From a virus, in IMG/VR virus record IMGVR_UViG_3300045988_056900: DNA of 64,000 nucleotides; one strand, written 5' to 3'. Made by a program: the position numbers and the translations under genes. Below the pieces are notes generated by a model. It was not told the origin of the DNA and searched no databases. It was given only the letters and a program-made list of their open reading frames with translations. This document shows, one piece after another, positions 5,955 through 21,737 of the stretch. Every line of letters begins with the position of its first letter. Position 1 is the first letter of the stretch.

Positions 5955-6009
5955 ATTCTCATATATTATACGAGCATACGGTATTTGAAATATATCTGAT
6001 AAGCCTTTG

Positions 6010-7989
6010 TTAATCCCATAGGCTCATTTGTAACGGTTTTAATTCACGGATTATCTTATAGGCTTCCATAATGTAATACCTATAATTAATCTTTCTCTCT
6101 TCAATTGGTTTATCGTCTAAGTAATTTAATAAAGTAACACCAGATGCAGTAAGCATATTCTGATACTGTTTTTCTTTTGCAACAAATATCTTTTTACCTA
6201 CATATGGTTCATCATATTCTATAATTTCACCTTCTTTGTGTCCTGTTGGTTTCCATTTCCATAAATAGGCACCATTAGTACTTGCATAGAAACGATTAGT
6301 CCTTTGTTGTTCTTTATTATTATACTCAACATGCCATTGTTTACCAGTCTTTTCAGCCATTAGAAAGTCTCTAATGTCTTGGCAACCTTTTATAGTTTCT
6401 TCTACTGGTACTCCGTTCTTAAAAAAGTTTATTACTGCTTTCGGTATGATCTTCGGAGTTAGACCTTTCCCTAATTTCACAGTAGTAATAAACATACCCT
6501 TTTCTTTTACTTTATCATCTTCAGTAATAGCAAAGTAGTCATTTATAGCATATTGATACATAGCCTTAAAACGTTCTTCTTCTAAAGTAAGTTTAGTAAG
6601 TTGTTCCCATTCTCTGCATACTTTGTTTACACTATCATATACAGATTTTTTAAGTAATACAAACAGACCATCTGTATTAGCTTGGACGATTCGACATCCT
6701 AATTGGGTTAGTTTTTCAGCTAGCATTAGTAATAGTAACTGCCCATTTATACGTATTTGCATTACTGCAAATGGACTATAACAGAAATTATGTGGATTCT
6801 GTAAGTTACCTGATAATCCATTGAGAGCAAGCTTTAAGGTTTCGTTTTTAACCTTATTGCCATTGTGTTTAGCTTCGATGCGCTCATCTTTAATTTGTCT
6901 ATATACTTCTAGAAATTCAGGTCCTAAATGTTTAGGATAGAACCCATATTCTATTAGCATACTTGGATATAGTGATGCAACATCTATATCAATGAGCATT
7001 TCATCTTCTTTTGGTATAACTATTTCAGGATCATTCACTGAATGAATTCCTCCAACTCCTACAGAATATCTTAATCCTTCAAATATGAATTTATTTTCAT
7101 ATCCTTTTCTTCCTGGAGATACTATTTGACTTTTCATATCATCTAGTACTTTTTGAAGTATAGGACTATCATACTTAATAAATGGTAGGATTACCTTATT
7201 TAAAGGTATTACATCCATTGGAGATCTTAAATCTTTAATATCATACCAGGTTTGACCTGTCTTTTCAAGATATTTCTGAGTTAAAATCTTCATTCCAATG
7301 TTTACTCCGTCTTTACTAAGTACTCTTACTCCGTATTCATCTTCAATAGCTAACCTTAAATCTACATCTTTTTTACATCTATTGAGTAACTCTTCAGTAG
7401 AATTAACATCATTAATATTATACTCAATCATTGAATCTATTTGATTTTCAGGTAAATCTGCCTGCCAATCTGCAACAAATTCCTGTACATTTCTGTACTG
7501 CATTGTTACTTGAATTTCTTTCAAACCTACTCTTAACTTATTGCTATAAAGCATAGTAAGAATATCAAACGAATCAAAACAAATCATATACTTCCACTTA
7601 CTCCAAGCTCTAATATCGTCTTCACTTGAAGTAGTAATTACTTTACTTAAATTAAATATAGATCTACATATATCTCTATATCCTTTGTATTTCATTACAA
7701 CATAATAATCTATTATATAATTTATAATAGGATTATCATAATGAAGATTATTATAACCACAAAATAATTTATTAGTATTTAACTGAATTTTTGTAGTATA
7801 TAAGTCTCCGAAAGTATAGTCTGTATTAACTGTATGAAAGAAATTGACTAATTCATCTAATTGATTTCTTCTGCAAGATATTTCAAATTTATGCAATTCA
7901 CCTGTTTCTGTATTTTTTACAGTACAATGGAAAACATTGGGGAATACCTCAATATCATATACATAAACAATCTTATCTCGTATAATCAT
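6010..7989 (-). CDS. family B DNA polymerase
   Basis: 659 aa. Exo I DIEVFPN, Exo II NNLHYDNPI, Exo III YNINDVNS, motif A DVASLYPS, motif B KLALNGLSG, motif C QANTDGLFV. Confidence 0.95.
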   Translation of the reverse strand: MIIRDKIVYVYDIEVFPNVFHCTVKNTETGELHKFEISCRRNQLDELVNFFHTVNTDYTFGDLYTTKIQLNTNKLFCGYNNLHYDNPIINYIIDYYVVMKYKGYRDICRSIFNLSKVITTSSEDDIRAWSKWKYMICFDSFDILTMLYSNKLRVGLKEIQVTMQYRNVQEFVADWQADLPENQIDSMIEYNINDVNSTEELLNRCKKDVDLRLAIEDEYGVRVLSKDGVNIGMKILTQKYLEKTGQTWYDIKDLRSPMDVIPLNKVILPFIKYDSPILQKVLDDMKSQIVSPGRKGYENKFIFEGLRYSVGVGGIHSVNDPEIVIPKEDEMLIDIDVASLYPSMLIEYGFYPKHLGPEFLEVYRQIKDERIEAKHNGNKVKNETLKLALNGLSGNLQNPHNFCYSPFAVMQIRINGQLLLLMLAEKLTQLGCRIVQANTDGLFVLLKKSVYDSVNKVCREWEQLTKLTLEEERFKAMYQYAINDYFAITEDDKVKEKGMFITTVKLGKGLTPKIIPKAVINFFKNGVPVEETIKGCQDIRDFLMAEKTGKQWHVEYNNKEQQRTNRFYASTNGAYLWKWKPTGHKEGEIIEYDEPYVGKKIFVAKEKQYQNMLTASGVTLLNYLDDKPIEERKINYRYYIMEAYKIIRELKPLQMSLWD

Positions 7990-8008
7990 AATTAATAATG
8001 TTAGTTTG

Positions 8009-8066
8009 AGTCTGTGGAGGGAATCGAACCCTCATTTAACAGTTTTTCCATTTAAACTACACAGAC
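8009..8066 (-). ncRNA. tRNA-like module A lacking an anticodon arm (58 nt)
   Basis: Minus strand reads GTCTGTG-TA-GTTT-AAATGGAA-AAAC-TGTTAAAT-GAGGG-TTCGATT-CCCTC-CACAGAC-T. It has a perfect 7-bp acceptor stem, a D-arm with GG, and a canonical T-arm. Only 8 nt occupy the place of the anticodon arm. Confidence 0.55.
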
Positions 8067-8119
8067 AACCAGCATACTGCCGCATTAAAATTTCTAAATT
8101 ATGGATTTGCTAGCATATT

Positions 8120-8569
8120 TTAGGCGGCTAGCGAAGCCTTTGTTGTACTTGTTTTTCGTACATACGTTTTCTTAAACGCTACAAGGGAAGCTTTGTACTT
8201 AGCCTTGTCTTCTTTGCTTTGTTTAATAGATTTTGCTTTAGATTGTTTCATATGAATAATCATATGATCAAACTTAACTTGAGCATCGAGCTGTTTTCTG
8301 TCGTATTTATTAAACCTAGGATAATTGATAGATTGAAATACGAAAGTACTTTTTCTCTTTTCAACAAGAGCTTTTGCTCTTTCTCGTTTAACTTTTCTAC
8401 GAGCTTTAAGTTCTTCACTATAGAAGTTTTTTGGTTTAACCTCTTCTTCAGAAGTAATTTGTTTTACTCGAAATACTCTTCTTTCTGCTTTTCGAGCATT
8501 TCTTGCTGCAACTCTCTCTTCACTACGTGCTATTTTATATTCTTCTTTTCTGTTTTTATCTATTTTCAT
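8120..8569 (-). CDS. lysine/arginine-rich protein with C-terminal ...ASLAA
   Basis: 149-aa ORF, TAA stop. Terminal codons are CTA GCC GCC TAA. Confidence 0.75.
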   Translation of the reverse strand: MKIDKNRKEEYKIARSEERVAARNARKAERRVFRVKQITSEEEVKPKNFYSEELKARRKVKRERAKALVEKRKSTFVFQSINYPRFNKYDRKQLDAQVKFDHMIIHMKQSKAKSIKQSKEDKAKYKASLVAFKKTYVRKTSTTKASLAA

Positions 8570-8594
8570 ATCTTGATAATATTAATAGTTAAAC

Positions 8595-9359
8595 TTATGC
8601 TGCTAAAAGTTTTGATTTAGTGTAATAGGTCCAATTGTTATTACTTAAATCTTCAACGGTTATTCCGGTGAACTTATCATTGTTTTCGTACTTCTTAGCT
8701 AATACTTTTACTTTAGAGAATGCTTCTTCTTTATCATTAGCATCTAAATAATCCGTGTAGAAGTCTGTACTTTTCATAGGATTATCTTCGCTTTGATTCT
8801 GTACTACATAACGGAACTTACGAGTGTTCTTTTTGTTATTTAGCACTTCTCTTCCTTTCTTTAGGAATTCTAAAACAGAAGCCTTCACCTCATTTATATG
8901 AGGTCTACTGGCTAACAGTTCAGCTTTATACTCTTTTTCACGTTGAAATCTAACCTTGATTTCTTCATCAGTTAGATTAACTGGTTTCGGCTGAACAAAC
9001 AGTCGTTTTCTAATTAATCGAGTGAACTTCTTCTTCTCTTTCCTAGTATAATGAACTGTAGGTTCAAATCCAGCGCTTGCTAGAATTTGCTTAATAAGCT
9101 CCTTCTTAGCTTGTTTAGCTGTTTTATTTTCCTGACGAGAGTTCTTTCCTACTTCTGTAGTATAGCTTTTTTGCTTAACTTTACCAACTATGTTGGTTAT
9201 TATTACTTTCCCATTCTCACCCTTTGTAATATAGGGAGATGGACCCGGTCTTCTAAATACTTCTTCTACTTTCTTAGATCTACGTAATTTAGAACGGTTA
9301 GTTCTCGATAATTTTTTTCCTTTATGATCTTTATGTTTACCTGATAAATTCTTTTTCAT
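8595..9359 (-). CDS. lysine/arginine-rich protein with C-terminal ...KLLAA
   Basis: 254-aa ORF. Terminal codons are TTA GCA GCA TAA. Confidence 0.75.
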   Translation of the reverse strand: MKKNLSGKHKDHKGKKLSRTNRSKLRRSKKVEEVFRRPGPSPYITKGENGKVIITNIVGKVKQKSYTTEVGKNSRQENKTAKQAKKELIKQILASAGFEPTVHYTRKEKKKFTRLIRKRLFVQPKPVNLTDEEIKVRFQREKEYKAELLASRPHINEVKASVLEFLKKGREVLNNKKNTRKFRYVVQNQSEDNPMKSTDFYTDYLDANDKEEAFSKVKVLAKKYENNDKFTGITVEDLSNNNWTYYTKSKLLAA

Positions 9360-9412
9360 AATCTTGATAATTTTAGAAGTTAATAACTAGCGAGCCCAAA
9401 GGCTCGCATTAA

Positions 9413-9922
9413 TTAAGCGGCTAGACAAATAGGAGCTGATTCAATATCAAGTTCAGCTTTGTCATTAAAATCTTCTAAGTCTTTATTCAACTTATTAATT
9501 TCTATCTGCAGCTTATTCTTTATATTGCTGATGTAAGCTGAAGTGAGTTCCTCACTAATATTCAGATTCTTTTTGCCTTTAGCTCGCTTTATCTTTGGGT
9601 CGATTGTTTTAATCTTCCCTAAATGAAACAGTTGTTCCTGTTTCTCGGATAGTGAAAATATTGTATAATAGTTATTTTCTGCTGGTAAATCAGAGAACTT
9701 CTTATAACCCATATTAATACATTGTAAATACAGTTTCATAAGAATTCGTTCTTCTGCCATTTCTTGAATCTTCGTTAACAGTACCTTAAGGTCATAATTA
9801 CGAATAGTTCCTTTAGAAATGATATTTTCGTTTTTAATAATCGTCCAATATTTAGTAATATCTTTACTAAGTTCATCGCGACGATTTTTTGCATATTTAG
9901 ATGTAATTGATTTCATATTCAA
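9413..9922 (-). CDS. hypothetical protein with C-terminal ...ICLAA
   Basis: 169-aa ORF. Terminal codons are CTA GCC GCT TAA. It is followed on the minus strand by the hairpin GCGAGCC-TTTG-GGCTCGC (9391-9408). Confidence 0.75.
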   Translation of the reverse strand: MNMKSITSKYAKNRRDELSKDITKYWTIIKNENIISKGTIRNYDLKVLLTKIQEMAEERILMKLYLQCINMGYKKFSDLPAENNYYTIFSLSEKQEQLFHLGKIKTIDPKIKRAKGKKNLNISEELTSAYISNIKNKLQIEINKLNKDLEDFNDKAELDIESAPICLAA

Positions 9923-9971
9923 GTGATTTGTTTTTTAAGTTAATACTTGACCGAAATCGTTTACTAGTTAG

Positions 9972-10037
9972 TCATGCATGACAGATTCAAACTGCCGTCC
10001 CTCTGATGAGTGCTCTAATCAACTAAGCTAATGCATG
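9972..10037 (-). ncRNA. tRNA-like module B with a vestigial anticodon arm (66 nt)
   Basis: Minus strand reads CATGCAT-TA-GCTT-AGTTGATTA-GAGC-A-CTC-ATCA-GAG-GGAC-GGCAG-TTTGAAT-CTGTC-ATGCATG-A. It has a 7-bp acceptor stem, a D-arm and a T-arm. A 3-bp/4-nt mini hairpin replaces the 17-nt anticodon arm. Confidence 0.5.
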
Positions 10038-10044
10038 TTATATA

Positions 10045-10139
10045 ATAGAGAACTACCCCATTCAGTAGTCTCTATTAAAGTAGTACCCCATTCAGTACTA
10101 TTAATAGATATTGATATGATGAATACCCAGTTCAGTATT
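10045..10139 (-). promoter_or_regulatory. three tandem stem-loops with a conserved 8-nt loop and covarying stems
   Basis: Plus-strand stems and loops are ACTAC-CCCATTCA-GTAGT (10052-10069), TAGTAC-CCCATTCA-GTACTA (10081-10100) and AATAC-CCAGTTCA-GTATT (10122-10139). The second stem pair changes C:G, G:C, A:T. Confidence 0.55.
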
Positions 10140-10713
10140 ATAAATCATCACGTTCAACAATTTTTATTTCTTTTGCAAAATAGACCGGTAGAATCCGTCC
10201 GTCTGTTGTTTTAGCACCAACATATAGTTTATTTCCTGTTTCAGAAACTCCTACACTTCGGTTATGTTCTTTTTCATTCGAATACTTTTGTAAATACTTT
10301 TCATTGATATACTTAGAATGTAGTTCTCCGTTCGTACTACTTCTTACTACATCAAATAAAATATCTACCATTTTATCCAAATCATTATTATCGGTAGCTT
10401 CTTTTAATATGGCATTCATAATACCATAAAAAGCTTCCTCATTTCTTGCTTCTCCAGTTCCAGACATTGTGTCTGCTAATTTGATTGCTATATCAGTAAT
10501 ACTCACCAGTCCATGAGCATTAAAGAACCGTTGCCACCATCTAGGACCACTTCCATAGTACAAGATAATCTGTCCATCCTCTTGTATATCTACTTTTTTA
10601 GGTCTTTCGTTAATTCTCCCATTCAAGATCTTAACTTTTGCTAAAACAGCTGGTTCATAAATAATTAGCATACGCAAGATATCAACCCGGGAAGGTGATA
10701 ATCTTCCGTTCAT
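10138..10713 (-). CDS. hypothetical protein
   Basis: 191-aa ORF. Confidence 0.7.
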   Translation of the reverse strand: MNGRLSPSRVDILRMLIIYEPAVLAKVKILNGRINERPKKVDIQEDGQIILYYGSGPRWWQRFFNAHGLVSITDIAIKLADTMSGTGEARNEEAFYGIMNAILKEATDNNDLDKMVDILFDVVRSSTNGELHSKYINEKYLQKYSNEKEHNRSVGVSETGNKLYVGAKTTDGRILPVYFAKEIKIVERDDL

Positions 10714-10718
10714 ATCTG

Positions 10719-11351
10719 TTATTCTGTTGTAGTAGTTTCAACATGCACGTTTACTTCTACATCACTTCCAATACCACACTGCCGCATATAATCAGTATAA
10801 ATGCGTTTGTTAGCATCGGAATAACCTCGAACTGTCTTAGACAGATTCAAGCAGTGACGAGCAAAGTTCTCGTAGTGAGTAATAGCACCCATGTTAGCTT
10901 CCTCAACTAATTTGTCGAGATTCGGCAAATCTTCAGCTGAGAAAAACATCGGACTAGCTCCGCTCTTACCAAGGCGGTCAATTGCTTCCGTAACGTTAGC
11001 CCGGGTAGCTTTGCTGAAATCCGGTTCAGCTATTTCGAACATCAAAGGTTCAACACCAGGAATGTCCTTGTTGATAGCAATCTTCGGCCGTTGATCAAGA
11101 TCCTTAGCGACAATACTTACACTCATGATATCAATAGCTTTAATAATATAAGCTTTGATCTCATTGCGGAAAGTATTGATGCCATTCATGACGTCTTCCT
11201 TGTACTTAGGATCTGGATTTACTGCGATAATAGTAAATAACTGCTTACCGAAGTAAGGACCATATTTCTGTGCCACTTGCCGGTTACGTGCTAAGATTTG
11301 TGCAGCTGCGTTAGGAATCTGCGGTGCACTGTTGTTATTCAAATTTTCCAT
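10719..11351 (-). CDS. hypothetical protein
   Basis: 210-aa ORF. Confidence 0.7.
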   Translation of the reverse strand: MENLNNNSAPQIPNAAAQILARNRQVAQKYGPYFGKQLFTIIAVNPDPKYKEDVMNGINTFRNEIKAYIIKAIDIMSVSIVAKDLDQRPKIAINKDIPGVEPLMFEIAEPDFSKATRANVTEAIDRLGKSGASPMFFSAEDLPNLDKLVEEANMGAITHYENFARHCLNLSKTVRGYSDANKRIYTDYMRQCGIGSDVEVNVHVETTTTE

Positions 11352-13499
11352 AAAAAATGTTCCCTTCTTGAGTCCGCATTTGATATACCAATACAGATCA
11401 TTTTTTAGTTTTTAAGTTAATAATAAGTTAATGCTCTCCACTGTTCGATTATTTTATAGCATTACAATAATGGTAATGGTGAATTCAATCACATAATCTA
11501 CTAGGTATTAAAATAATAAATGTTAATTTATTTGAAAATATCTTCTGATAAATTCTCTGATAATTTCTGTTAATTCTGATATGTTTATCGTCCCGTTTCG
11601 ACGGTTAAGATTCAACTTTTTCGATGCTTAACGCACCTCTCACCGTTATTTTATATCGCGATTAGATGCAATATAAAAGACATAGATCATTGACTAATGG
11701 TAAGTCTACCTAGTATTTCCGGATTATCGAAATTCATAGAATTACGGTCGTTTATCTAACGTTACCAACTCACAAGCCCATTACTTATAGTATGGCCCAC
11801 TTGTACCATGCATAGGATTTGTTGTTTATTCTGCTCGAACACGAGGATTTCCACCTCTCATCGTCTCCTTGTTGCTCAATTGTTATTACTATTGAGTCGA
11901 AATGTACTACGCCCTTTAATCTACCGAGACAGGGTGATAGGCGACAGGTTATTAACGAATCAGCGTTCTCTTTACATATATACTTGCAATATATACTTTA
12001 GGAGTTTCTAATGTCAGCGATGACGGTTGGCAGTCTGGGGTGGATCATACTCCTTATCTGACTACTTTACAACAGTAGTTTGCTATCTCTGTACTCGCCA
12101 TTGAACTTCCCAATTTGGTAAAGATTAATAATGTTAACAATTCACTTAGAACAGATTTAACTAGGCCGGTTCTATTCGGCATTAACTTTCAGATGCAGTA
12201 AAGTAACATCATCTGTTACAGTCTTACCTCTCTGGTTCCAGGGTTCTAAGCTGGAGCAGCTTGGCTCTTACTCATTAATTTATTGTTTTTGACCACTACT
12301 AATATCTCCTACTCTGGAATGAGTGTGATAATCTAGCAATGCACCTTTACATATCTTAAAAGGTATAAGCTCTGCTGTTTTTTACGAGGAGTTTTCTAAG
12401 CTTCTCCTTAGTATTATTTATCATTATAATCACACTTGCTAAAGGTGTGTAACGATTAGAATCAGGGTTATTGCGCCCTCAAACCGCTTAGACACTCTTG
12501 GTCTATTCATTCCTCATTCAATTATACTCACACGAACGAATAAGCACGTGAGTCACTTTAGACTTGAAAGACGGTATCAATCTCATATACCTCATCCCTT
12601 ATACGTAAATTCTTTTGCGGCACGCTAGTTACGGTAGCGCACAGGATTGGCTCCTGCTCCCTGGTAATCAGTCTATTTTCACTATAATTTTAACATAGTT
12701 ACTTAGGATCATTGCATGTCCAGCCTTCATATCTTTACTTTGTATAAGTATGTACCATAACACGGTTATCCTTACATTAGTATCAGTAATTACTCCCTTT
12801 ATATTATGAACCAATTATCATAAAAACACTAGAGTTAGCCTATTTTTCCAATCAGGACGCATAGTTGCGTTTTTGTATGAAGCGAGGTTGGAACCCGCTT
12901 GTTGCGTTAGTCAGCCATAATGTATTTTTCGATAATCCTTTTCCAAGGGATTATCCAAGAACCCTTTGTCCTTGTTTCAGCATCGTGTTCATATTCCTTC
13001 TTGAGTCACATCTTGATTGACGCATACGAATATAGAGATTTCGTTCTCTTTTTGAGGATTAAGGATTTCATCTTTTGTAGTTTTTATTTGCTTATTGCTA
13101 CGAATTCATCTCCTCGGTTTTGAATTAATTTGTAACTAGGGTATCTTCTTGTAGCTCCTATATTACGGGTTCTTCACTCTTAATATCACCAGACGGTTCT
13201 CATATTAACAGCGCAGGCTATTCACCCTCTCCTGCTTTCTTATACCTTTTTCACCAGTATAAGTTATTATCCTACCTTTTGAGTATCTCACAGTGTTAGC
13301 TGCTACGAAGCATCTCATAACTACTTCTTACATATTCTCGGATTCTGTCTTTTTTCGGGCTATGTGTAAATGGACACAAACTCCCTGACGCAGTAGTACT
13401 TAAAAACTTCCTTCTGTGACTGCCGGAGTGATTTACGCTATAGTTTTACTCCTCTCGAACTATGATATAATTATAGTATTTATATAGCGGCTATTATCA
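11352..13499. other. 2.15-kb ORF-free block, candidate large non-coding RNA locus
   Basis: No ORF of 60 aa or more on the operon strand. Where I checked by hand (13140-13499), stops occur in all three minus-strand frames even when TAG is ignored. The block is flanked by complete co-directional genes and looks richer in G+C than the flanks. It has many short hairpins, for example CCGT-TTCG-ACGG at 11593-11604 and AAGCTG-GAG-CAGCTT at 12248-12262. Confidence 0.5.
11544..11582. repeat. four tandem TCTGATAA-type repeats
   Basis: TCTGATAA (11544), TCTGATAA (11556), TCTGTTAA (11566), TCTGATAT (11575). Same motif as the array at 3933-3961. Confidence 0.55.
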
Positions 13500-13925
13500 T
13501 TAACTATTTTCCGCTGAGGATTTATCTTCTCCTGTAATTTCTGACTCTGGTTTTACAAGAAATATGTCTCCAGAAGATAAGTTGATGTTTGCAACCACCT
13601 TCTTACCCCGGCATATATCAACTATGCCATTTTTTATATCATTACTACTGATATAATCAATTGGATCCATACGTCCTGGATCAAAACCATCCAAGTGCAC
13701 GCATATACTACTTACAGACGAGCGTAAGTACTGTTCTACGAATAAGATGTTACTTATACTAGCTTTCGCTTGTACCTGTATCATATTAGAACTTTCTCCG
13801 GCTACTATAAAGTAACCGGTTTGATCTACTACCAAATCTAAATTACGCCTAGCATCTTTGCTATTTCGTATAATACGTGATAGTCGCATCATACTATTAA
13901 GCATAATAAGATTCTTCTTACTCAT
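13500..13925 (-). CDS. hypothetical protein
   Basis: 141-aa ORF. Confidence 0.65.
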   Translation of the reverse strand: MSKKNLIMLNSMMRLSRIIRNSKDARRNLDLVVDQTGYFIVAGESSNMIQVQAKASISNILFVEQYLRSSVSSICVHLDGFDPGRMDPIDYISSNDIKNGIVDICRGKKVVANINLSSGDIFLVKPESEITGEDKSSAENS

Positions 13926-14319
13926 TTTGAGATTCTTTAGTAAAAGGAGAAAGTGGCTTTACATCCTCCGGTAAATTAGCTATACTGCGTACCTTTGGAA
14001 ATCCTGTATTTACTTCTTTTACTTTAGTTCTCCACTTAACTACTGGTTTTAATTCGCCAATAGTTGTCACATTCACAATTGCGTCTGCTGTTCCTTTTAC
14101 GGATACTTCTTGAGTATTAACATCATAAGATACTTCTATAGTATCTACATTACTCACAGACTTTGCTTCCTTATTAGAGTGCATCATAGACATCAACTCT
14201 AAATATGAAGGTATTACAGGTTGTTGTGCCTGCACGGGTTCAACTGTACTAAGTATATTATAGCCAACAAATATGCTAGCAATAAATAAACCTACAGCTG
14301 ACAAAATTCTACTATTCAT
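13918..14319 (-). CDS. hypothetical secreted or membrane-anchored protein
   Basis: 133-aa ORF with a hydrophobic N-terminus, ILSAVGLFIASIFVGYNIL. Confidence 0.65.
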   Translation of the reverse strand: MNSRILSAVGLFIASIFVGYNILSTVEPVQAQQPVIPSYLELMSMMHSNKEAKSVSNVDTIEVSYDVNTQEVSVKGTADAIVNVTTIGELKPVVKWRTKVKEVNTGFPKVRSIANLPEDVKPLSPFTKESQNE

Positions 14320-14386
14320 ATTGATTACGAATTAGTGAACAGTCTCTTAAACTTATATACAATACTCCACCAATTATGGAACCGGC

Positions 14387-15925
14387 TTAGCTTTTTTTTT
14401 CTTCAGCTGCAGCCTCTTCTTTCTTGGTTTCCGGATATTCACCTACAAGTACAGGAAGTGGACCTTCAAATTCGGCAATCTTGTCCATAGGTGAACGATA
14501 GTAGTTGATGATCTTACCAACAGCAAAACGCAGTTGCTCATTAGTAGGAGGAATCTTTCCAGGGTAATAGTTAGCACGAACAAGAGAGATAACCTTTCTA
14601 GCACTATCGCGCGCCATTTTGATTTCTGCCAATTGTTCATCAGTTGCTCCTTCAGGAACAGAACATGTGTAGTCATGCATCAATTTGTCAACATAATCCA
14701 CGCCAATTACTCCCATTGTTGCTTGAATAGCTTTGTCATCTGCCGGATTTTCAATCTTCTCGGTTTTGATAACATTACCATTAGCATCAATTTTGTCTTC
14801 CAAGTTATATCGGAAGTTTTCCTGGATGAATGTACGAACGATAAGTACAACTTCATCATCTGTAACAGTAGGTACAGCGCCATGAACAATGCAATGTGCA
14901 CTTACCGGCGAGTTTTCCTTCTTGGTATACAGATATACGGCACGTCCGATTCCTTTCATCAAACCAGCTACAGGTACAAGATGGAAAATCTCATTGATCC
15001 ATTCGTCTATTCGACGATTGTCAATCTTGAGCTTTTCATCAGTAGTACTAGCATTGTTGATACAAAGTTTACGATACCATTCAATGGTGTCAATTAAACT
15101 AATTACAATGTTACGATCTTTACGTAACAGATATTCCAAAGCACTACAGATCTTTTCATGATCTGAACCTACTTTTTCAATATCGGTTTCTGGAACTTCA
15201 AGTTTAGCCAGTTTAGGATCCTTCAGTTCTTCAGGAATAATAGTTTCCTGTGGTCCAAAAGGAATTGCTAACTGACCGTCTGTAGCTCCAGGAAGAGCAC
15301 GCGGTGATGCAAGTTTCACACCGAACATAGTAGCCATTTCTTGCAACGGCATAATCTGTTCAGGAGACACTATCAACTGAAGTTTACCTTCAGCCTGCAT
15401 ACCGATCATTTCTTGCTGAACACCGAGCATTCCAAGGAACCATACAGCATTAATCGCTTGATTAATAGCATTGTATTGTTCAGGGAAGTTCTTCTTCAAC
15501 TCTTCATTGTTAGTGAATCGTTGATGTCCAACAAATGAAAGCATAGCTTTAGCATCTGTAGAACTTGTAGAAGAACCAGTCGGAGCACCGATAGACTTAG
15601 CAAGTGTTTTCACTGCTTCAGCCGGATCTACTTCTTCAGCAATAACTGTAGGAGTCTTATCCTTCTTTGGCTTTGGCTGTTGTGCAGCACCTTTCTGGGC
15701 GGGCTGTTTGTCAGTCTTAGCCTGAGTCTGCGCTTTTTCCTCTTTCTTAGGTTGAGCAGCAGCCGGCTTTTCAGTTGCTGCTGGTGCAGCTACTTGCTGA
15801 GTTGTTTCAGCACTTCCTTTCTCGGTTTTAGTTACTTTTGCAGTGTTACCTGCTTTAGCTGTTTCTGCAGGTTTTGCTGCAGTACTTGCAGCTGCTTGAG
15901 CTGCTTTGTTTTTCTTAGACGACAT
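14387..15925 (-). CDS. hypothetical protein with a ~100-aa A/K/P/Q/E-rich low-complexity N-terminus
   Basis: 512-aa ORF. Codon third positions look G/C-richer than in neighbours. It is preceded by the conserved leader AAACATTATCAAA-ATG. Confidence 0.8.
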   Translation of the reverse strand: MSSKKNKAAQAAASTAAKPAETAKAGNTAKVTKTEKGSAETTQQVAAPAATEKPAAAQPKKEEKAQTQAKTDKQPAQKGAAQQPKPKKDKTPTVIAEEVDPAEAVKTLAKSIGAPTGSSTSSTDAKAMLSFVGHQRFTNNEELKKNFPEQYNAINQAINAVWFLGMLGVQQEMIGMQAEGKLQLIVSPEQIMPLQEMATMFGVKLASPRALPGATDGQLAIPFGPQETIIPEELKDPKLAKLEVPETDIEKVGSDHEKICSALEYLLRKDRNIVISLIDTIEWYRKLCINNASTTDEKLKIDNRRIDEWINEIFHLVPVAGLMKGIGRAVYLYTKKENSPVSAHCIVHGAVPTVTDDEVVLIVRTFIQENFRYNLEDKIDANGNVIKTEKIENPADDKAIQATMGVIGVDYVDKLMHDYTCSVPEGATDEQLAEIKMARDSARKVISLVRANYYPGKIPPTNEQLRFAVGKIINYYRSPMDKIAEFEGPLPVLVGEYPETKKEEAAAEEKKS

Positions 15926-15985
15926 TTTGATAATGTTTTAAATTGTTAATAAATAAATGAATTCTGATAGATTATTTAATGAGGT

Positions 15986-16354
15986 TCAACTATCATCCTC
16001 ATAAGCTGGCGAGTCTCTGCCCTTAGTAGTATGACCACTAACTAATGCGTCTGATAATACTTCGGATGGATATGAAATGTAACTCATTACTCCTGACTGG
16101 CATGTAGTCTCTGTCACTAAAACTACTGGTAATGTGCAATCCATATCCGTATTATCTACGGTATTAATTAGCTGGATAATAGAAGCTGTAGTATCATTTT
16201 TAGTAAAATGATTTACAGCCTCTTTACCCAACATACCTACTAATAGACCAGCTAATATAGTGAATAGAAATACCCACCACATTTTTGTGGAACGCATAGC
16301 GCGTGCTAATACTGCTCCAAATAGAAGCAATACTAAAATCCATGTTGCTGACAT
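15986..16354 (-). CDS. small membrane protein downstream of the sigma factor (possible anti-sigma partner, unproven)
   Basis: 122 aa. Two N-terminal hydrophobic helices, WILVLLLFGAVLA and WWVFLFTILAGLLVGML. Starts 12 nt after the sigma gene ends. Confidence 0.6.
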   Translation of the reverse strand: MSATWILVLLLFGAVLARAMRSTKMWWVFLFTILAGLLVGMLGKEAVNHFTKNDTTASIIQLINTVDNTDMDCTLPVVLVTETTCQSGVMSYISYPSEVLSDALVSGHTTKGRDSPAYEDDS

Positions 16355-16365
16355 AATTAGTAAAT

Positions 16366-16941
16366 TTAATCTGTTAATAATTCTTTTAGTTTCTCTCTTG
16401 CCTTATTAAGGCGTGATTTAACTTGAGACTCTGTGAGTCCAAGATGCTCTGAAATCTGTTTGTAAGACAGATTTTGTATAGAGCGTAGTTCAATTATATT
16501 CCTATACTTCCAACGAAGTCGCGACAAGGCATTATCTAGAGCATCACTTTTCTCTGAGAAGATATAATCTTCTTCAGGTGAATAACTGGCCTGGCTACTC
16601 AACTGCAGAGAGTTGGCATCGTCGTCAATCCAATAGTTCGCTTTTTCCTTTTTAGTATGTCGAATATAATCAATACTAGTATTTATTGCAATAGTTTTTA
16701 ACCACATCTCAAATGAGATATTGTTTATATAACTATCTAGCTTACTAAAAGCTTTAGTAAAAGTAACTGATAATAAATCATCAGCTACATCTTTATTATT
16801 TACAATATAATAAATTGTATTATAAATAATCTTACTAAAACGATTATAAAGCCTTGTGAAGGCAGATTGTTTACCTTCTTTTGCCTGTTTGATCAGTTCG
16901 AAAATCTGTTGCTTTTCTAAATCTGTCATAATTACGGGCAT
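16366..16941 (-). CDS. ECF-type sigma-70 family RNA polymerase sigma factor
   Basis: 191 aa. Region 2-like DDLLSVTFTKAFSKLDSY...FEMWLKTIAINTSIDYIRH. Region 4 HTH LSYKQISEHLGLTESQVKSRLNKAREKLKELL. Confidence 0.8.
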   Translation of the reverse strand: MPVIMTDLEKQQIFELIKQAKEGKQSAFTRLYNRFSKIIYNTIYYIVNNKDVADDLLSVTFTKAFSKLDSYINNISFEMWLKTIAINTSIDYIRHTKKEKANYWIDDDANSLQLSSQASYSPEEDYIFSEKSDALDNALSRLRWKYRNIIELRSIQNLSYKQISEHLGLTESQVKSRLNKAREKLKELLTD

Positions 16942-17067
16942 TTTGTGAGAGGTAATCGCTAGAGTATGTGCATATATATTACTGTTTTATTGAAGTAACT
17001 CTAAAGTTAATCTGGCACGTGGACTACTGTTATTCATCCTTTTTGCTTGACCTCTCTCGTTAGTAGT

Positions 17068-17091
17068 TATAGGGCCGATCAAAGCCCTATA
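17068..17091 (-). terminator. 8-bp hairpin immediately after the 17095 gene
   Basis: TATAGGGC-CGATCAAA-GCCCTATA. There is no clear U-run. Confidence 0.4.
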
Positions 17092-17094
17092 ACC

Positions 17095-17451
17095 TTAAAA
17101 TGGTAATCCTAGTTCATATCTACAGTGATACTCCATATAATCTTTTGAGAACTTTTGATAAGCATCCCAAATACATTCCATAAATTCTCTTTTCATAGCT
17201 ATAGATATTCTATTTGAAGAGAGTTTATTAACCATTCCGCATACTATTCTAATACGGACATCCAGAGTAAACTTAGTATCCTTACCAATTCTTTGAAGTA
17301 TATTAGTATCAAACCAATATATTATGTGTCTAACAGATTCATGAGTTTTCTCTAAATTTGTATAGACCCACCATGATGCTCTCCAATGAAATGATTGATA
17401 TTGTTTACCCCACGGAGTATATACTCTGTTAGTAAGACTGTATAATACCAT
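17095..17451 (-). CDS. hypothetical protein
   Basis: 118-aa ORF. Confidence 0.6.
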   Translation of the reverse strand: MVLYSLTNRVYTPWGKQYQSFHWRASWWVYTNLEKTHESVRHIIYWFDTNILQRIGKDTKFTLDVRIRIVCGMVNKLSSNRISIAMKREFMECIWDAYQKFSKDYMEYHCRYELGLPF

Positions 17452-17899
17452 TTTCCTTTTTGATTTCTCTAGCTATCTTGCATATTACAAGTTGTGCTTG
17501 TGCAGCTGACCAACCTGTCATACTCATGATATATACTTTAGTACTCATAGCACCTCTACCTGGAATAGAAGTATCTACTTTATACCTTTCTTTAAAAGTG
17601 TGATACATAGCATCATCAATGCTTGGCATCTTCGCACCACGCATAGAACGTAATTCTATGGGTAGTTGACATACATCTGATGATTCATAAGGATAAAACA
17701 CATACATCTCTGGATGTGCATATATACTTTGAATCTCAAGAGATTCTTCCTTTACTTCTTTGAATTTTGCTTTTTGAAAAGCATCATTCATAATAATCGC
17801 AGAAACTATCCTTAAATGAGGAGTTTCACCAACAACAATTGCTAGAAGTTCGATATCACTTCCAACCACTTGATATACGCCTGGTTCATTTAGTCTCAT
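17429..17899 (-). CDS. hypothetical protein
   Basis: 156-aa ORF. Confidence 0.65.
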   Translation of the reverse strand: MRLNEPGVYQVVGSDIELLAIVVGETPHLRIVSAIIMNDAFQKAKFKEVKEESLEIQSIYAHPEMYVFYPYESSDVCQLPIELRSMRGAKMPSIDDAMYHTFKERYKVDTSIPGRGAMSTKVYIMSMTGWSAAQAQLVICKIAREIKKENGIIQSY

Positions 17900-18084
17900 G
17901 GTTTATTGATTTCTTTTTTAAAGTTATCTACTATACCAGATACTTGATCCATAGTTAGTTGTGGATATTTATCCATTACTTTACCTATTGCTTCAATATC
18001 TGATTTGCTTTCGTTCAACATTTTCTTGAACTCTCTCTCTTCTTGTCTGGAGTCAAACCAAACCCACCAAGGTACTACGCGCAT
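17896..18084 (-). CDS. hypothetical protein
   Basis: 62-aa ORF with an ATGA overlap to the next gene. Confidence 0.5.
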   Translation of the reverse strand: MRVVPWWVWFDSRQEEREFKKMLNESKSDIEAIGKVMDKYPQLTMDQVSGIVDNFKKEINKP

Positions 18085-18353
18085 TGATATTCGTATTCTT
18101 TAATTTTGTTATTCAATAGCTCCCATTTTTCCTTGTCGATATCAGTTGCTTCTACTAAGTAGATGATATCACAAGATGCTCTAAATACACCACGAATGTA
18201 GTTCATTCCCTCTTTATAATGATATTTGTTCTTATAAATTCTGGGAACATTTGCATGTAGACGAGTTATTAACTCTGTCTTCATTTTCAGTTCTGTTGCA
18301 GCTTTCTCCCATGATTCTGGTAAGTTCTGCCTAATAAAGTTCATTAATCCCAT
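18075..18353 (-). CDS. hypothetical protein (TAG-terminated)
   Basis: 92-aa ORF. The stop codon is TAG at 18075-18077. Confidence 0.6.
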   Translation of the reverse strand: MGLMNFIRQNLPESWEKAATELKMKTELITRLHANVPRIYKNKYHYKEGMNYIRGVFRASCDIIYLVEATDIDKEKWELLNNKIKEYEYQCA

Positions 18354-18389
18354 TTCAAATTAATTTATTGATTAAACTTAATTTAATTG

Positions 18390-18449
18390 TGGCATTAGAG
18401 GGAATCGAACCCTCTAACAGCTCTTACGTCTGATCTAGCCTGATATGCC
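18390..18449 (-). ncRNA. tRNA-like module C (60 nt) lacking a canonical anticodon arm
   Basis: Minus strand reads GGCATAT-CA-GGCT-(14 nt)-AGCT-GTTA-GAGGG-TTCGATT-CCCTC-TAATGCC-A. The T-arm is identical to module A. The acceptor has 5 bp plus 2 mismatches. Confidence 0.4.
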
Positions 18450-18485
18450 TTACCACTTAGTTTTATATTTATTAAAATACTACGA

Positions 18486-18707
18486 GGCGACTGTCACTAT
18501 TTCTAGCGCTAAAATCTATTTCACAACCCCATCATTAGTAACAGTTTCTCTTTAAATAAAGAGTTGTTAACCAGGATACTGTATGCTCCCCTGGGGATAT
18601 CTCACGCTGCTAAGCGTGTATAATCCATTACATAACTTGTATTGCCAGTTATCTGCTTATTGACCTATTCTACTTCACATTGTCGCAGTCAAATGCCTAG
18701 ATGCCCC
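18486..18707 (-). ncRNA. tmRNA-like coding piece: 5' acceptor strand, D-loop-like motif and tag reading frame ending LAA-stop
   Basis: The minus strand from 18707 reads GGGGCAT-CTAGGCATTTGAC-TGCGAC. Positions 18646-18602 read GGC AAT ACA AGT TAT GTA ATG GAT TAT ACA CGC TTA GCA GCG TGA, that is GNTSYVMDYTRLAA*. ACAGTC at 18494-18489 can pair with GACTGT of the upstream acceptor piece. The 3' boundary is a guess. Confidence 0.4.
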
Positions 18708-18863
18708 ATTTAAAGTAGTACTCTTACAAAATTTAACTTATAGTTTGAGTACTACTCCCGATCTTCCTATCGCTGTTAATGAAAAAACTCTTAGAGAGAA
18801 ATCGAAAATTAGCGTAAGATTTCTATACGGGCCTCTTATTATTCTTGCTTATTCCATTTTTTG

Positions 18864-18920
18864 TGGAGCATGAGGGAGTCGAACCCTCGTCCTAACGACT
18901 GATTCATAGACCTAACAGTC
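18864..18920 (-). ncRNA. tmRNA-like acceptor piece: hairpin, GGAC, T-arm, 3' acceptor strand and discriminator A
   Basis: Minus strand reads GACTG-(14 nt)-CAGTC-GTTA-GGAC-GAGGG-TTCGACT-CCCTC-ATGCTCC-A, followed by CAA. ATGCTCC is complementary to GGGGCAT at 18707-18701, with G3:U70. Confidence 0.4.
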
Positions 18921-19551
18921 AATGAGTTTATAAGATTAATTGAAGTATAACTCGCGTACAGAATTAAGCCATTCTTCCTGCTTTATTATTTAACACAGTT
19001 CACAGCACTCTCTACAGGTGAGCCTTCGTTATGTTATACAATATCCCTGCTATTTTTACAATTAATCTTATATTGTGACTAGGTAGGCGACCAAACCTAC
19101 CTAGCCTATGGTCTTTTACGATATTTAAAGTATTCTCATACTATTAATGCCTTGATAACCTGTCTTGGAAGTATAGAATACTTTTCAGCTTCTATACGGC
19201 ATGATGTCTAGCATCGCACTATTCCAAAAATGCCGACTTGATATCATAAGAATGCTATTGCATAATATACTCAAAGAGTATAGAATCTGTATTTATATAT
19301 TGCGCAATTTATATATACATCCTCATGATCTTAGGCACATGATCAGTGGCACGTTGTCATAATGTCCTACTCTGGCATCGGTTGTATTACTACACCTTAC
19401 ACTTGTTGTATGCATGTCAATTCATGCATGAGCTGCATCTTCTGGTACTTAGCACATAAAATGTCATCACCACCTATTAGCTACTTTCTCTAGTTAGGTT
19501 ATATAGTCAGTATTTCTACTGCTAAAACACTATACCTGGACTATGCGCGGA

Positions 19552-20016: not shown

Positions 20017-20063
20017 TTTTTGATAATGTTTAAAGATTGATACTATTGTTAATTAATCTCGAG

Positions 20064-21262: not shown

Positions 21263-21264
21263 AA

Positions 21265-21735: not shown

Positions 21736-21737
21736 AA

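What the first reader, a model, noticed from the sequence alone, without database searches (positions are those of the whole stretch)
8009..18449. Family of compact tRNA-like modules without anticodon arms punctuating the early operons
There are three minus-strand elements: A at 8009-8066, B at 9972-10037 and C at 18390-18449. Each has an acceptor stem, one 5' arm and a canonical T-arm, but only 8-14 nt where the 17-nt anticodon arm should be, giving total lengths of 58-66 nt.
- A and C share the identical T-arm GAGGG-TTCGATT-CCCTC.
- The tmRNA-like acceptor piece has GAGGG-TTCGACT-CCCTC.
- A, C and that piece are all followed by CAA after the discriminator.

They sit in intergenic gaps of co-directional genes: before the polymerase gene, after the hairpin array, and at the end of the tmRNA-like locus. 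They cannot decode. They could instead be RNase P or RNase Z substrates that cut polycistronic RNA (tRNA punctuation), CCA-adding or aminoacylation targets, or decoys for tRNA-binding host factors.
Basis: seen in the sequence. Interest (0 to 1): 0.75.

Follow-up and report, generated by a model that had tools for sequence, protein, structure and literature searches.

The report
Anticodon-less tRNA-like modules in crAss-like phage
Three short RNA elements in the replication-gene operon of a human-gut crAss-like phage keep the top half of a tRNA but have lost the anticodon arm; they are conserved in related phages, so they most likely work as cutting signals for the host's tRNA-processing enzymes, although no cutting has been shown.

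Summary
The window is a crAss-like phage, 98.5% identical to cr113_1 (Buchavirus, Suoliviridae).

- **Structure.** A (8009-8066), B (9972-10037) and C (18390-18449), all on the minus strand, each have an acceptor stem stacked on a canonical T-arm, plus a 5' arm. None has a usable anticodon arm.
- **Predictors.** ARAGORN calls none of them. Rfam's tRNA model hits A only by deleting the anticodon arm. A model trained on site-A relatives alone recovers B and C.
- **Conservation.** All 75 related loci with the polymerase gene carry a tRNA or tRNA-like element 18-22 nt before its ATG.
  - Its centre ranges from about 2 nt to a roughly 65-nt hairpin, while the acceptor, D and T stems co-vary (98-99% paired).
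  - Site B is a canonical tRNA-Arg in sister genera.
  - Site C usually abuts the 3' end of a permuted tmRNA.
- **What stays constant.** The 11-12 bp acceptor/T stack, the D-loop/T-loop pair 19:56 and a non-CCA trailer (C-A/T-A).

These are features that RNase P, RNase Z and the CCA-adding enzyme are known to recognise. The best reading is tRNA remnants reused as processing signals (confidence about 0.5). Cleavage is untested. This is a new variant of a known kind, close to plant mitochondrial t-elements and mascRNA.

The parts
8009..8066 (-). Element A: 58-nt tRNA-like module. Acceptor 8060-8066 / 8010-8016; D arm 8042-8057; 8-nt linker 8034-8041 in place of the anticodon arm and variable loop; T arm 8017-8033; discriminator 8009.
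   Evidence: Sequence. Rfam tRNA 44.9 bits with the anticodon arm deleted. No ARAGORN call. Model R1 78.8 bits. Covariation: 98.9% paired with 13/16 pairs changed on both sides; armless-only subset 7/16.
8070..8082 (-). Small leader hairpin (CGGCA-GTA-TGCTG) followed by GTT, directly 5' of A. A hairpin followed by YTGG(W)(W) also precedes the element at sites A and C in relatives.
   Evidence: flagged as terminator-like; upstream sequences in relatives.
7990..8008 (-). 19-nt A/U-rich trailer (CAAACTAACATTATTAATT) between A's discriminator and the DNA polymerase ATG at 7989. The spacing is 18-22 nt in all relatives.
6010..7989 (-). DNA polymerase gene immediately downstream of A.
   Evidence: ORF list; cr113_1 annotation.
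9972..10037 (-). Element B: 66-nt tRNA-like module with a 7-bp acceptor stem, a D arm, a mini-hairpin (3 bp, 4-nt loop) in place of the anticodon arm, and a T arm with TTTGAAT loop. It is syntenic with the canonical tRNA-Arg(TCT) of sister genera.
   Evidence: Covariation: 96.2% paired, with acceptor, D and T stems 100% paired and 11/19 pairs changed on both sides. R1 21.9 bits.
10053..10138 (-). Array of three hairpins with 8-nt loops UGAAYNGG, immediately 5' of B. Context only; it is conserved with covarying stems in relatives.
   Evidence: 3 hits; shuffles average 0.24.
9917..9971 (-). Conserved 55-nt trailer between B and the ATG (9916) of the next gene (9413-9916).
18390..18449 (-). Element C: 60-nt tRNA-like module with a 5-bp acceptor stem (18445-18449 / 18391-18395), a 7-bp T stem with TTCGATT loop, and a 28-nt centre. 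It lies at the 3' side of the tmRNA locus.
   Evidence: R1 22.3 bits.
18354..18389 (-). Conserved 36-nt trailer (CAATTAAATTAAGTTTAATCAATAAATTAATTTGAA) between C and the ATG of the 92-aa ORF (18075-18353).
18602..18923 (-). Permuted two-piece tmRNA. The acceptor piece carries T arm GAGGG-TTCGACT-CCCTC and the 3' strand ATGCTCC-A-CAA. The coding piece starts GGGGCAT, giving a G3:U70 pair. The tag is GNTSYVMDYTRLAA. In most relatives the C-site element abuts its 3' end.
   Evidence: ARAGORN 18511-18957; Rfam tmRNA_permuted 40.3 bits, below its threshold of 47; relatives.

Best explanation
A, B and C are remnants of phage tRNA genes. They have lost decoding but are kept, by selection on RNA structure, as cis-acting processing signals inside the leftward (replication-gene) polycistronic transcripts.

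**Proposed mechanism (inferred, not shown)**
1. Each module folds into the top half of a tRNA: an 11-12 bp acceptor/T-arm stack capped by the D-loop/T-loop elbow.
2. Host RNase P cuts at its 5' end.
3. Because the trailer is C-A/T-A and not CCA, RNase Z (or trimming) cuts at or just after the discriminator, and CCA may then be added.

**Expected consequences**
- The downstream mRNAs gain defined short leaders: 19 nt before the DNA polymerase ATG, 55 nt and 36 nt at the other two sites.
- The upstream RNA is left ending in a small protective hairpin.
- At site C, the cut sets the 3' end of the tmRNA coding piece.
- The excised 44-66 nt mini-tRNAs would be by-products.

**Shown**: the structure, its conservation, its covariation and its tRNA ancestry.
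**Inferred**: the cleavage itself and which enzymes perform it.
For: **1. Selection acts on the RNA structure.**
- Site A alignment: 98.9% of cells paired, 13/16 pairs changed on both sides, 0/500 shuffles as good.
- Armless-only A subset: 7/16 pairs changed on both sides.
- Armless B: acceptor, D and T stems 100% paired, 11/19 pairs changed on both sides.
- C: 4 pairs changed on both sides.
- Family-wide: 53 distinct sequences, 98.3% paired, 15/16 pairs.

**2. Position is conserved but the anticodon region is not.**
- All 75 loci with the polymerase gene have an element 18-22 nt before its ATG.
- The centre of that element is about 2 nt, a mini-hairpin, 28 nt, or a roughly 65-nt hairpin.
- In other Suoliviridae subfamilies the same spot holds a canonical tRNA-Arg (cr115_1) or an 80-nt non-canonical element (cr114_1).
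- Site B is a canonical tRNA-Arg or tRNA-Lys in sister genera.

**3. The constant features are ones tRNA end-processing enzymes are known to recognise.**
- The stacked acceptor plus T length stays at 12 bp while its partition changes (7+5, 6+6, 5+7). That scan fixed the sum at 12, so the finding is that all three partitions occur.
- It is 11 bp in the two smallest forms (sequences).
- The tertiary 19:56 pair is kept. D-loop GG goes with T-loop C in 31/31 cases, and GA goes with T in 26/26, armless forms included.
- Established knowledge: RNase P, RNase Z and the CCA-adding enzyme accept acceptor/T minihelices and do not need the anticodon arm.

**4. The trailer points to the CCA-less 3' pathway.**
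- The trailer is always discriminator + C-A/T-A.
- The phage's own tmRNA has the same context and must receive CCA after transcription to be charged.
- The true suppressor tRNA, by contrast, encodes CCA.

**5. Context fits RNA processing.**
- The C-site element usually abuts the last helix of the tmRNA coding piece.
- The same operon carries a hatchet ribozyme and RAGATH-7, -9 and -20 RNAs in other intergenic gaps, so RNA-level processing modules are common there.

**6. Precedent.**
- Plant mitochondrial t-elements direct RNase P/Z cleavage at mRNA ends (PMC1920247).
- A tRNA-like module of a bacterial Y RNA with a 7-bp acceptor stem is cut by RNase P and receives CCA (PMC4201824).
Against: - There is no transcript-end or cleavage data of any kind. 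The mechanism rests on structure and analogy.
- Some centres are more conserved than a pure processing signal needs. C's 28-nt middle is nearly invariant within its type. B's mini-hairpin and the following GAGAC are conserved.
- Two C-site forms stack only 11 bp. The cr52-type A element has an A-A mismatch at pair 1:72.
- The highly conserved trailers could be promoters or translation signals. In that case the elements would sit at transcript ends and would not be punctuating a polycistron.
- No encoded CCA means a weaker contact with bacterial RNase P RNA.
- None of the 10 neighbouring proteins tested has a recognisable domain that links them to RNA processing.
Confidence: 0.5

Rival explanations
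1. The modules are genes for stable trans-acting small RNAs. After excision and CCA addition, the 44-66 nt mini-tRNAs would bind or soak up a factor that recognises the acceptor/T half or the elbow of tRNA. Candidates are SmpB/EF-Tu, CCA-end- or acceptor-targeting defence toxins, and tRNA-modifying or tRNA-surveillance enzymes. Processing would then be only the maturation step.
For: - Some centres are conserved in sequence (C type; B mini-hairpin).
- The architecture resembles the tRNA-like domain of tmRNA, which also lacks an anticodon arm. One module sits beside the phage tmRNA.
- The elbow pair 19:56 is kept.
- Tested precedent: tRNA-like modules in Y RNAs, some phage-encoded.
Against: - Across relatives the centre is hypervariable at each site, from about 2 nt to about 65 nt.
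- Near-identical genomes (99-100% identity in the 512-aa marker protein) carry at least three different C-site forms. This is hard to reconcile with a specific trans partner.
- There is no G3:U70 or other obvious aminoacylation identity.
- The fixed distance to the next ATG suggests a cis role.
Confidence: 0.2
2. The modules are cis-acting structured UTR elements that work without being cut. They could be a 5' protective or translational element for the downstream gene (for example an operator bound by a phage protein such as the polymerase). Or they could be a 3' tRNA-like cap that stabilises the upstream RNA.
For: - The spacing to the start codon is constant at 18-22 nt at site A, and the trailers are conserved.
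- A hairpin followed by the tRNA-like element recurs at sites A and C.
Against: - Nothing requires a generic UTR structure to keep a canonical T-loop (TTCGA/TTTGA), the 19:56 tertiary pair and an 11-12 bp acceptor/T stack. Those point to tRNA-specific enzymes.
- The same sites are occupied by genuine tRNAs in relatives, and genuine tRNAs are certainly excised.
Confidence: 0.15
3. The modules are decaying tRNA pseudogenes, or recombination scars at module boundaries, with no RNA function. The tRNA-like look is residual.
For: - Relatives carry full tRNAs at sites A and B.
- One lineage shows an apparently crippled 51-nt deletion form (L070).
- Site C is highly mosaic among near-identical genomes and sits next to homing-endonuclease insertions.
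Against: - Compensatory changes continue within the armless forms.
- The stems are 96-100% paired across lineages whose 512-aa marker protein is only 38-60% identical.
- The element is present at site A in 75/75 loci.
Confidence: 0.07
4. They are ordinary decoding tRNAs that the first reader mis-folded.
For: Rfam's tRNA model reports A above its threshold.
Against: - That Rfam alignment deletes the anticodon arm, replacing 18 model positions with 4 nt.
- ARAGORN calls none of A, B or C.
- B has a 4-nt loop on a 3-bp stem.
- No fold of C gives a 5-bp stem with a 7-nt loop.
Confidence: 0.01

Closest known systems
t-elements of plant mitochondria (tRNA-like processing signals; Hanic-Joyce 1990; Forner 2007, PMC1920247)
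   Same: - Both are non-canonical tRNA-like structures with a conserved T arm (GGTTCRANYCC) and an acceptor stem.
- Both are embedded in mRNA precursors next to coding regions.
- In plants their borders coincide with mRNA 5'/3' ends made by RNase Z and RNase P, and non-templated C/CC/CCA is added.
   Different: - Organelle versus bacteriophage.
- The plant elements are scattered and poorly conserved. Here three syntenic sites are conserved across a phage family with strong covariation.
- Cleavage is experimentally shown in plants and untested here.
mascRNA / MALAT1 and MEN-beta tRNA-like 3' modules (from my own knowledge: Wilusz et al. 2008)
   Same: - A tRNA-like module with a poorly conserved or aberrant anticodon region sits directly after a functional non-coding RNA.
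- RNase P cleavage at its 5' end creates the mature 3' end of the upstream RNA.
- RNase Z and CCA addition release a roughly 60-nt small RNA.
- Site C after the tmRNA coding piece has the same layout.
   Different: Eukaryotic nuclear lncRNAs versus a phage. mascRNA keeps a cloverleaf with an anticodon-like arm. No experimental evidence here.
tRNA punctuation of animal mitochondrial transcripts (from my own knowledge: Ojala et al. 1981)
   Same: tRNA-shaped units between co-directional genes would serve as the cut sites of a polycistronic RNA.
   Different: There the punctuating units are functional decoding tRNAs. Here A and C are nowhere canonical, and B is canonical only in sister genera.
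tRNA-like module of bacterial and phage Y RNAs (YrlA; PMC4201824)
   Same: - T arm, D arm and an acceptor-like stem.
- Substrates of tRNA enzymes. The form with a 7-bp acceptor stem is cut by RNase P and gains CCA.
- Some are phage-encoded.
   Different: Y RNAs are joined to a Ro60-binding stem and encoded beside Ro60. No such stem or gene is present here, and these modules stand alone between protein-coding genes.
tRNA-like domain of tmRNA
   Same: Acceptor stem, T arm and a reduced D region with no anticodon arm. A near-identical T-arm sequence occurs in this phage's own tmRNA.
   Different: - A, B and C lack G3:U70.
- They are closed hairpin-junction molecules that are not split across two pieces.
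- They carry no mRNA-like domain.
Non-tRNA RNase P substrates of phages (from my own knowledge: P1/P7 C4 antisense RNA precursor, phi80 M3 RNA)
   Same: Phage RNAs matured by host RNase P through an acceptor/T-like mimic.
   Different: Those are single regulatory RNAs. They are not a family of tRNA-derived modules at conserved intergenic sites.

Membership tests
Canonical (decoding) tRNA | Cloverleaf with a 5-bp anticodon stem and a 7-nt anticodon loop; detected by a tRNA predictor. | tested here: not met
   ARAGORN finds no tRNA at A, B or C. Rfam fits A only by deleting 18 anticodon-arm positions. B has a 3-bp stem with a 4-nt loop. C has no such arm in any fold.
Canonical (decoding) tRNA | 7-bp acceptor stem stacked on a 5-bp T stem, with a T-loop of TTCRA type and a D-loop partner for position 56. 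| tested here: met
   A and B are 7+5 bp and C is 5+7 bp. The 19:56 association holds in 57/57 cases.
tRNA pseudogene (neutral decay) | No selection on structure: stems accumulate mismatches, and presence is patchy among relatives. | tested here: not met
   96-99% of cells are paired, with many pairs changed on both sides, including within the armless-only sets. An element is present at site A in 75/75 loci.
tRNA-like processing signals (t-element / mascRNA type) | A non-decoding tRNA-like fold with acceptor stem and T arm, embedded in a longer transcript next to a functional RNA or ORF. | tested here: met
   The modules lie in intergenic gaps on the same strand as the flanking genes. They are 19, 55 and 36 nt before the next ATG, and C follows the tmRNA. 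Co-transcription itself is inferred from gene orientation.
tRNA-like processing signals (t-element / mascRNA type) | RNA ends at the element borders produced by RNase P (5') and RNase Z (3'), with non-templated CCA on the released element. | not testable with these tools
   No transcriptome or biochemical data are available. Indirect support only: the trailer is C-A/T-A and not CCA, as in the phage tmRNA that must be CCA-tailed.
tmRNA tRNA-like domain | A G3:U70 alanine identity pair, with the acceptor stem formed with a coding piece that carries a tag reading frame. | tested here: not met
   Pair 3:70 is C-G in A, U-A in B and C-G in C. The genuine two-piece tmRNA, with G3:U70, lies separately at 18602-18923.
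Y RNA (YrlA-type) tRNA-like module | The tRNA-like domain is joined to a Ro60-binding helix and encoded next to a Ro60 (rsr) gene. | tested here: not met
   No extra helix flanks the modules. Rfam (E up to 10) reports no Y RNA family in the window. The 10 neighbouring proteins tested have no Pfam hit at all, so none is identifiable as Ro60.
Phage attP / tRNA-gene integration site fragment | Only the 3' part of a host tRNA gene, identical to the host sequence, next to an integrase. | tested here: inconclusive
   Both acceptor strands are present and they co-vary among phages, which does not fit an attP fragment. No integrase appears in the annotated neighbourhoods of relatives. Host genomes were not searched.

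The most novel reading that the evidence does not exclude
Suoliviridae crAss-like phages run a tRNA-punctuation system of their own. tRNA genes at fixed intergenic sites have been stripped of their anticodon arms and kept solely as RNase P/RNase Z cut sites.
- They release the DNA polymerase mRNA and other replication-gene mRNAs.
- At site C, they generate the mature 3' end of a two-piece (permuted) tmRNA, a maturation step whose mechanism is, to my knowledge, unresolved.

To my knowledge this would be the first reported case in a bacteriophage of tRNA-derived, non-decoding processing signals under long-term structural selection. The excised CCA-tailed mini-tRNAs might additionally act in trans.
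Probability: 0.45. Interest if true: 0.75.

Novelty: new variant of a known kind. Interest (0 to 1): 0.62.

Why it matters
- **Annotation.** In abundant human-gut phages, tRNA genes need not be about codon supply. Their top half alone can be kept for hundreds of variants' worth of divergence as an RNA-level signal. That changes how "pseudo", "???" and odd tRNA calls in phage genomes should be read. ARAGORN already mislabels relatives of these elements as tRNA-His(atg), tRNA-Leu(taa) or "???".
- **A testable mechanism.** It gives a concrete hypothesis for how polycistronic crAss-like replication-gene transcripts are cut up. The same hypothesis covers how a permuted tmRNA gets its coding-piece 3' end.
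- **A natural experiment.** The series 7+5, 6+6 and 5+7 bp, with centres from about 2 to 65 nt, shows what the host's tRNA-processing machinery tolerates.
- **Limit.** If cleavage is not confirmed, the elements are still structure-selected phage RNAs of unknown role.

Tried and rejected
- **Ordinary tRNAs.** Rejected by ARAGORN and by the Rfam alignment.
- **Chance.** The loose 12-bp descriptor alone is not significant (4 hits against 1.7 in shuffles). The case therefore rests on the strict descriptor, the model-based detection of B and C and covariation.
- **More members in the window.** A filter-free search with model R1 and an Rfam search at E up to 10 found none on the minus strand.
- **C as an alternative partner of the tmRNA 5' strand.** I compared C's acceptor sequence with the tmRNA 5' acceptor strand by eye across loci. 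Some match (GGCAT, GGTAT) and others do not (GGGGCTA with AGCAA or GGTAT). Dropped.
- **Theta/HDV-like ribozyme in the trailers.** The trailers are too short and too A/T-rich, and Rfam finds nothing there.
- **Neighbouring proteins as RNA-processing enzymes.** 10 proteins gave no Pfam hits.
- **Sigma-70 promoter and terminator scan.** Promoter-like hits did not exceed the shuffled counts, and Bacteroidales promoters are not modelled. The only useful result was the leader hairpin before A.
- **Literature.** Searches combining crAss with tRNA-like, tmRNA, RAGATH/hatchet and theta ribozymes found no description of these elements. The searched library is incomplete, so absence is not proof.
- **The 2.1-kb ORF-free gap.** There is no minus-strand ORF even with TAG read through (one 150-codon plus-strand frame, 11609-12058, needs four TAG read-throughs). 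There is also no strong fold and no notable repeats. Left unexplained.

Full report
**What the window is.** Bases 5000-20000 match uncultured crAss-like phage cr113_1 (Buchavirus coli; Crassvirales, Suoliviridae, Loutivirinae) at 98.5% identity. They match other Buchavirus, Blohavirus and Buorbuivirus genomes at lower identity. Genes from 1 to about 25.7 kb run on the minus strand and include primase, helicase, ScpB, DNA polymerase and a sigma-like factor. Later genes run on the plus strand.

The minus-strand block is rich in structured RNAs:
- a permuted tmRNA (ARAGORN, 18511-18957);
- RAGATH-20, RAGATH-9 and RAGATH-7;
- a hatchet ribozyme.

**The observation.** Reading the minus strand confirms the three elements at the stated coordinates.
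- **A (58 nt)** has a perfect 7-bp acceptor stem, a 4-bp D arm with GG in its loop, and a 5-bp T arm with TTCGATT. Only 8 nt lie between the D and T arms.
- **B (66 nt)** has a 7-bp acceptor stem, a D arm and a T arm with TTTGAAT. A mini-hairpin of 3 bp with a 4-nt loop sits where the anticodon arm should be.
- **C (60 nt)** has a 5-bp acceptor stem stacked on a 7-bp T stem, and a 28-nt centre.
- ARAGORN calls none of them.
- Rfam's tRNA model hits exactly 8009-8066 at 44.9 bits, but only by replacing 18 anticodon-arm positions with 4 nt. It does not report B or C even at E up to 10.

**Chance.**
- A strict descriptor (T-loop consensus, 5-bp T stem, 7-bp acceptor stem) gave 2 hits in 0.48 Mb of shuffled sequence searched on both strands. 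The same real loci gave 48.
- A looser 12-bp descriptor finds only A, B, C and one plus-strand tRNA in the window, but shuffles average 1.7 hits. It is not decisive alone.
- A covariance model built from site-A sequences only (R1) scores C at 22.3 bits and B at 21.9 bits (E about 3-5e-4, rough). It also recovers the two plus-strand tRNAs and the tmRNA T arm. Nothing else credible appears.
- The family in this window is therefore A, B and C.

**Relatives.** I fetched 7 RefSeq relatives and 80 IMG/VR loci through a conserved 512-aa protein. I then took the sequence upstream of the orthologous downstream genes.

*Site A*
- All 75 loci that contain the polymerase gene carry a tRNA-shaped element ending 18-22 nt before its ATG.
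- The centre is hypervariable:
  - about 2 nt beyond the variable loop in the 58-59 nt form, found in the window's lineage and in the cr52-like lineage;
  - a mini-hairpin of 3-4 bp in the 71-nt form, which ARAGORN forces into "tRNA-His(atg)" or "???";
  - 28 nt in the 83-84 nt form;
  - a long irregular hairpin of about 65 nt in the 117-123 nt forms.
- In other Suoliviridae subfamilies the same position holds a canonical tRNA-Arg(TCT) (cr115_1), an 80-nt non-canonical element (cr114_1, 53.9 bits with R1), or a weak 78-nt one (cr10_1).

*Site B*
- The element is armless (64-67 nt) in Buchavirus-like lineages.
- It is a canonical tRNA-Arg(TCT), or tRNA-Lys(TTT), in Blohavirus- and Buorbuivirus-like lineages.
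- In some genomes it is split by an insertion that carries an HNH-endonuclease gene.

*Site C*
- The element is never canonical. Its forms are 44, 46, 59-60, 74-75 and 78-80 nt long.
- ARAGORN gives 2-nt "anticodons" or an odd Leu(taa).
- In most loci it directly follows the last helix of the tmRNA coding piece (...CGGCTAAGCTAATGTCGTAAAAAGCTGG|A...).
- In the window and a few other loci, a different stretch of about 130 nt lies between the tag and C.
- Genomes with 99-100% identity in the 512-aa protein carry at least three different C forms, so this locus is mosaic.

**Selection on structure.**

| Set | Cells paired | Pairs changed on both sides |
|---|---|---|
| Site A, 11 distinct sequences | 98.9% | 13/16 (0/500 shuffles as good; slid controls 30-52% paired) |
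| Site A, armless forms only | 97.9% | 7/16 |
| Armless B | 96.2% overall; acceptor, D and T stems 100% | 11/19, including a full switch of the acceptor from CATGCAT to GGTATGT |
| C, 60-nt type | 98.4% | 4/16 |
| All model hits, 53 distinct sequences | 98.3% | 15/16 |

- The last alignment was fitted to the model and includes true tRNAs.
- These counts do not correct for phylogeny, so the number of independent events is smaller than the number of cells.
- The tertiary pair 19:56 also tracks. D-loop GG goes with T-loop C56 in 31/31 distinct sequences, and D-loop GA goes with U56 in 26/26. Armless A (GG/C) and armless B (GA/U) are included. This probably reflects few independent switches.
- At site C the stacked acceptor plus T length is 12 bp in three different partitions, 7+5, 6+6 and 5+7. 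The scan fixed the sum at 12, so what it shows is that all three partitions occur.
- The stack is 11 bp in the two smallest forms, read from their sequences.

**What this implies.**
- The parts under selection are the acceptor/T minihelix of fixed length, the D/T elbow, and the position relative to the next gene. The anticodon region is free to shrink or grow.
- From established biochemistry, this is the substrate definition of RNase P, RNase Z and the CCA-adding enzyme. All three accept minihelices and measure from the T-loop/elbow to the ends.
- The trailer is always discriminator + C-A/T-A, never CCA. The same context follows the phage tmRNA acceptor piece, which must acquire CCA after transcription to be charged. 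The genuine suppressor tRNA(CUA) at 32002-32076 encodes CCA.
- A small hairpin followed by YTGG(W)(W) precedes the element at sites A and C. It would leave the upstream cleavage product with a structured 3' end.
- The best-supported mechanism is therefore that these are tRNA remnants reused as processing signals for the polycistronic replication-gene RNA and for the tmRNA coding piece.
- This works like plant mitochondrial t-elements and like mascRNA after MALAT1 (my own knowledge).
- A bacterial precedent exists: a Y-RNA tRNA-like module with a 7-bp acceptor stem is cut by RNase P and CCA-tailed.
- The cleavage itself is inferred, so I put this at about 0.5.

**Rivals.**
- **Trans-acting mini-tRNAs (0.2).** This is compatible with processing. 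It is favoured by the conserved sequence in some centres. It is weakened by the hypervariability and mosaicism of the centres and by the lack of aminoacylation identity.
- **Uncut UTR structures (0.15).** This does not explain why tRNA-specific tertiary features are kept.
- **Neutral pseudogenes or recombination scars (0.07).** This is contradicted by covariation within the armless forms and by presence in 75/75 loci.
- **Mis-folded ordinary tRNAs.** Refuted.

**Novelty.** I found no description of these elements in papers on crAss-like genomes, theta ribozymes or RAGATH RNAs. The library is incomplete. The principle, a tRNA-like processing signal, is known from organelles and mammalian lncRNAs. 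Three things appear new:
- the phage setting;
- the family-wide syntenic conservation with loss of the anticodon arm;
- the link to a permuted tmRNA.

I rate it a new variant of a known kind, with interest 0.62.

Noticed in passing
window 18602-18923 (-) (ARAGORN 18511-18957): A permuted (two-piece) tmRNA in a crAss-like phage. The acceptor piece ends ...ATGCTCC-A-CAA, with no encoded CCA. The coding piece starts GGGGCAT, giving a G3:U70 pair. The tag is GNTSYVMDYTRLAA. It scores 40.3 bits on Rfam tmRNA_permuted, below the threshold of 47. In cr113_1 and cr56_1 an opposite-strand endonuclease gene lies in the stretch upstream of the coding piece, and ARAGORN then misses the tmRNA.
   Followed up: partly
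window ~18495-18530 (-): Between the tag stop and element C lies a second segment that resembles a tmRNA 5' end (GGGGTTGTGAAATAGATTTTAGCGCTAG...). It is shared with L020, L021 and L043. It replaces the usual ...CGGCTAAGCTAATGTCGTAAAAAGCTGG end of the coding piece. It could be a duplication remnant or an alternative 3' domain.
   Followed up: no
window 10053-10138 (-): Three hairpins have a conserved 8-nt loop UGAAYNGG (stems ATAC/GTAT, GTAC/GTAC, CTAC/GTAG). These are the only such hairpins in the window (shuffles average 0.24). They lie just 5' of element B and are conserved with different stems in all relatives. No Rfam family matches.
   Followed up: partly
window 31891-31993 (+) and 32002-32076 (+): A 103-nt tRNA-like gene (Rfam tRNA 35 bits; no ARAGORN call) has about 30 extra nt in the anticodon/variable region and no CCA. 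It sits 8 nt upstream of an amber-suppressor tRNA(CUA) that does encode CCA. Amber recoding of late genes is reported for many crAss-like phages (PMC7886860); it was not checked in this window.
   Followed up: no
window 19327-24586 (-): Intergenic structured RNAs cluster on the same strand: RAGATH-20 (19327-19428), RAGATH-9 (20360-20516), hatchet ribozyme (22237-22363) and RAGATH-7 (24318-24529). There are also sub-threshold hits: twister-P1-like (24531-24586, 27.8 bits), directly beside RAGATH-7, and HDV-like (23561-23653, 24.3 bits).
   Followed up: no
window 11352-13499: A 2.1-kb stretch has no minus-strand ORF, even if TAG is read through. One 150-codon plus-strand frame (11609-12058) would need four TAG read-throughs. 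A similar unannotated gap occurs at the same place in cr52_1, cr56_1, cr53_1 and cr4_1. It has slightly higher G+C, no strong local folding, no notable repeats and no Rfam hit.
   Followed up: partly
L006 (cr53_1) 9286-9994; also L054, L061, L063, L065, L078: In these relatives the site-B tRNA is split in its anticodon region by an insertion that carries an HNH endonuclease gene. It looks like an intron with a homing endonuclease.
   Followed up: no
L005 6938-7054, L026 17900-18017 and similar (site A, 117-120 nt forms): In these relatives the site-A anticodon arm is replaced by a hairpin of about 65 nt that contains three copies of ATTCGTAT. This could be a protein-binding platform.
   Followed up: no
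RefSeq records NC_055889 (82122-82193) and NC_055891 (12092-12171): The public annotations label site-A and site-C relatives of these elements as tRNA-His(atg) and tRNA-Leu(taa). These calls are forced. The anticodon arm is a 4-bp stem with a 3-nt loop in the first, and no regular anticodon stem could be found by eye in the second.
   Followed up: partly
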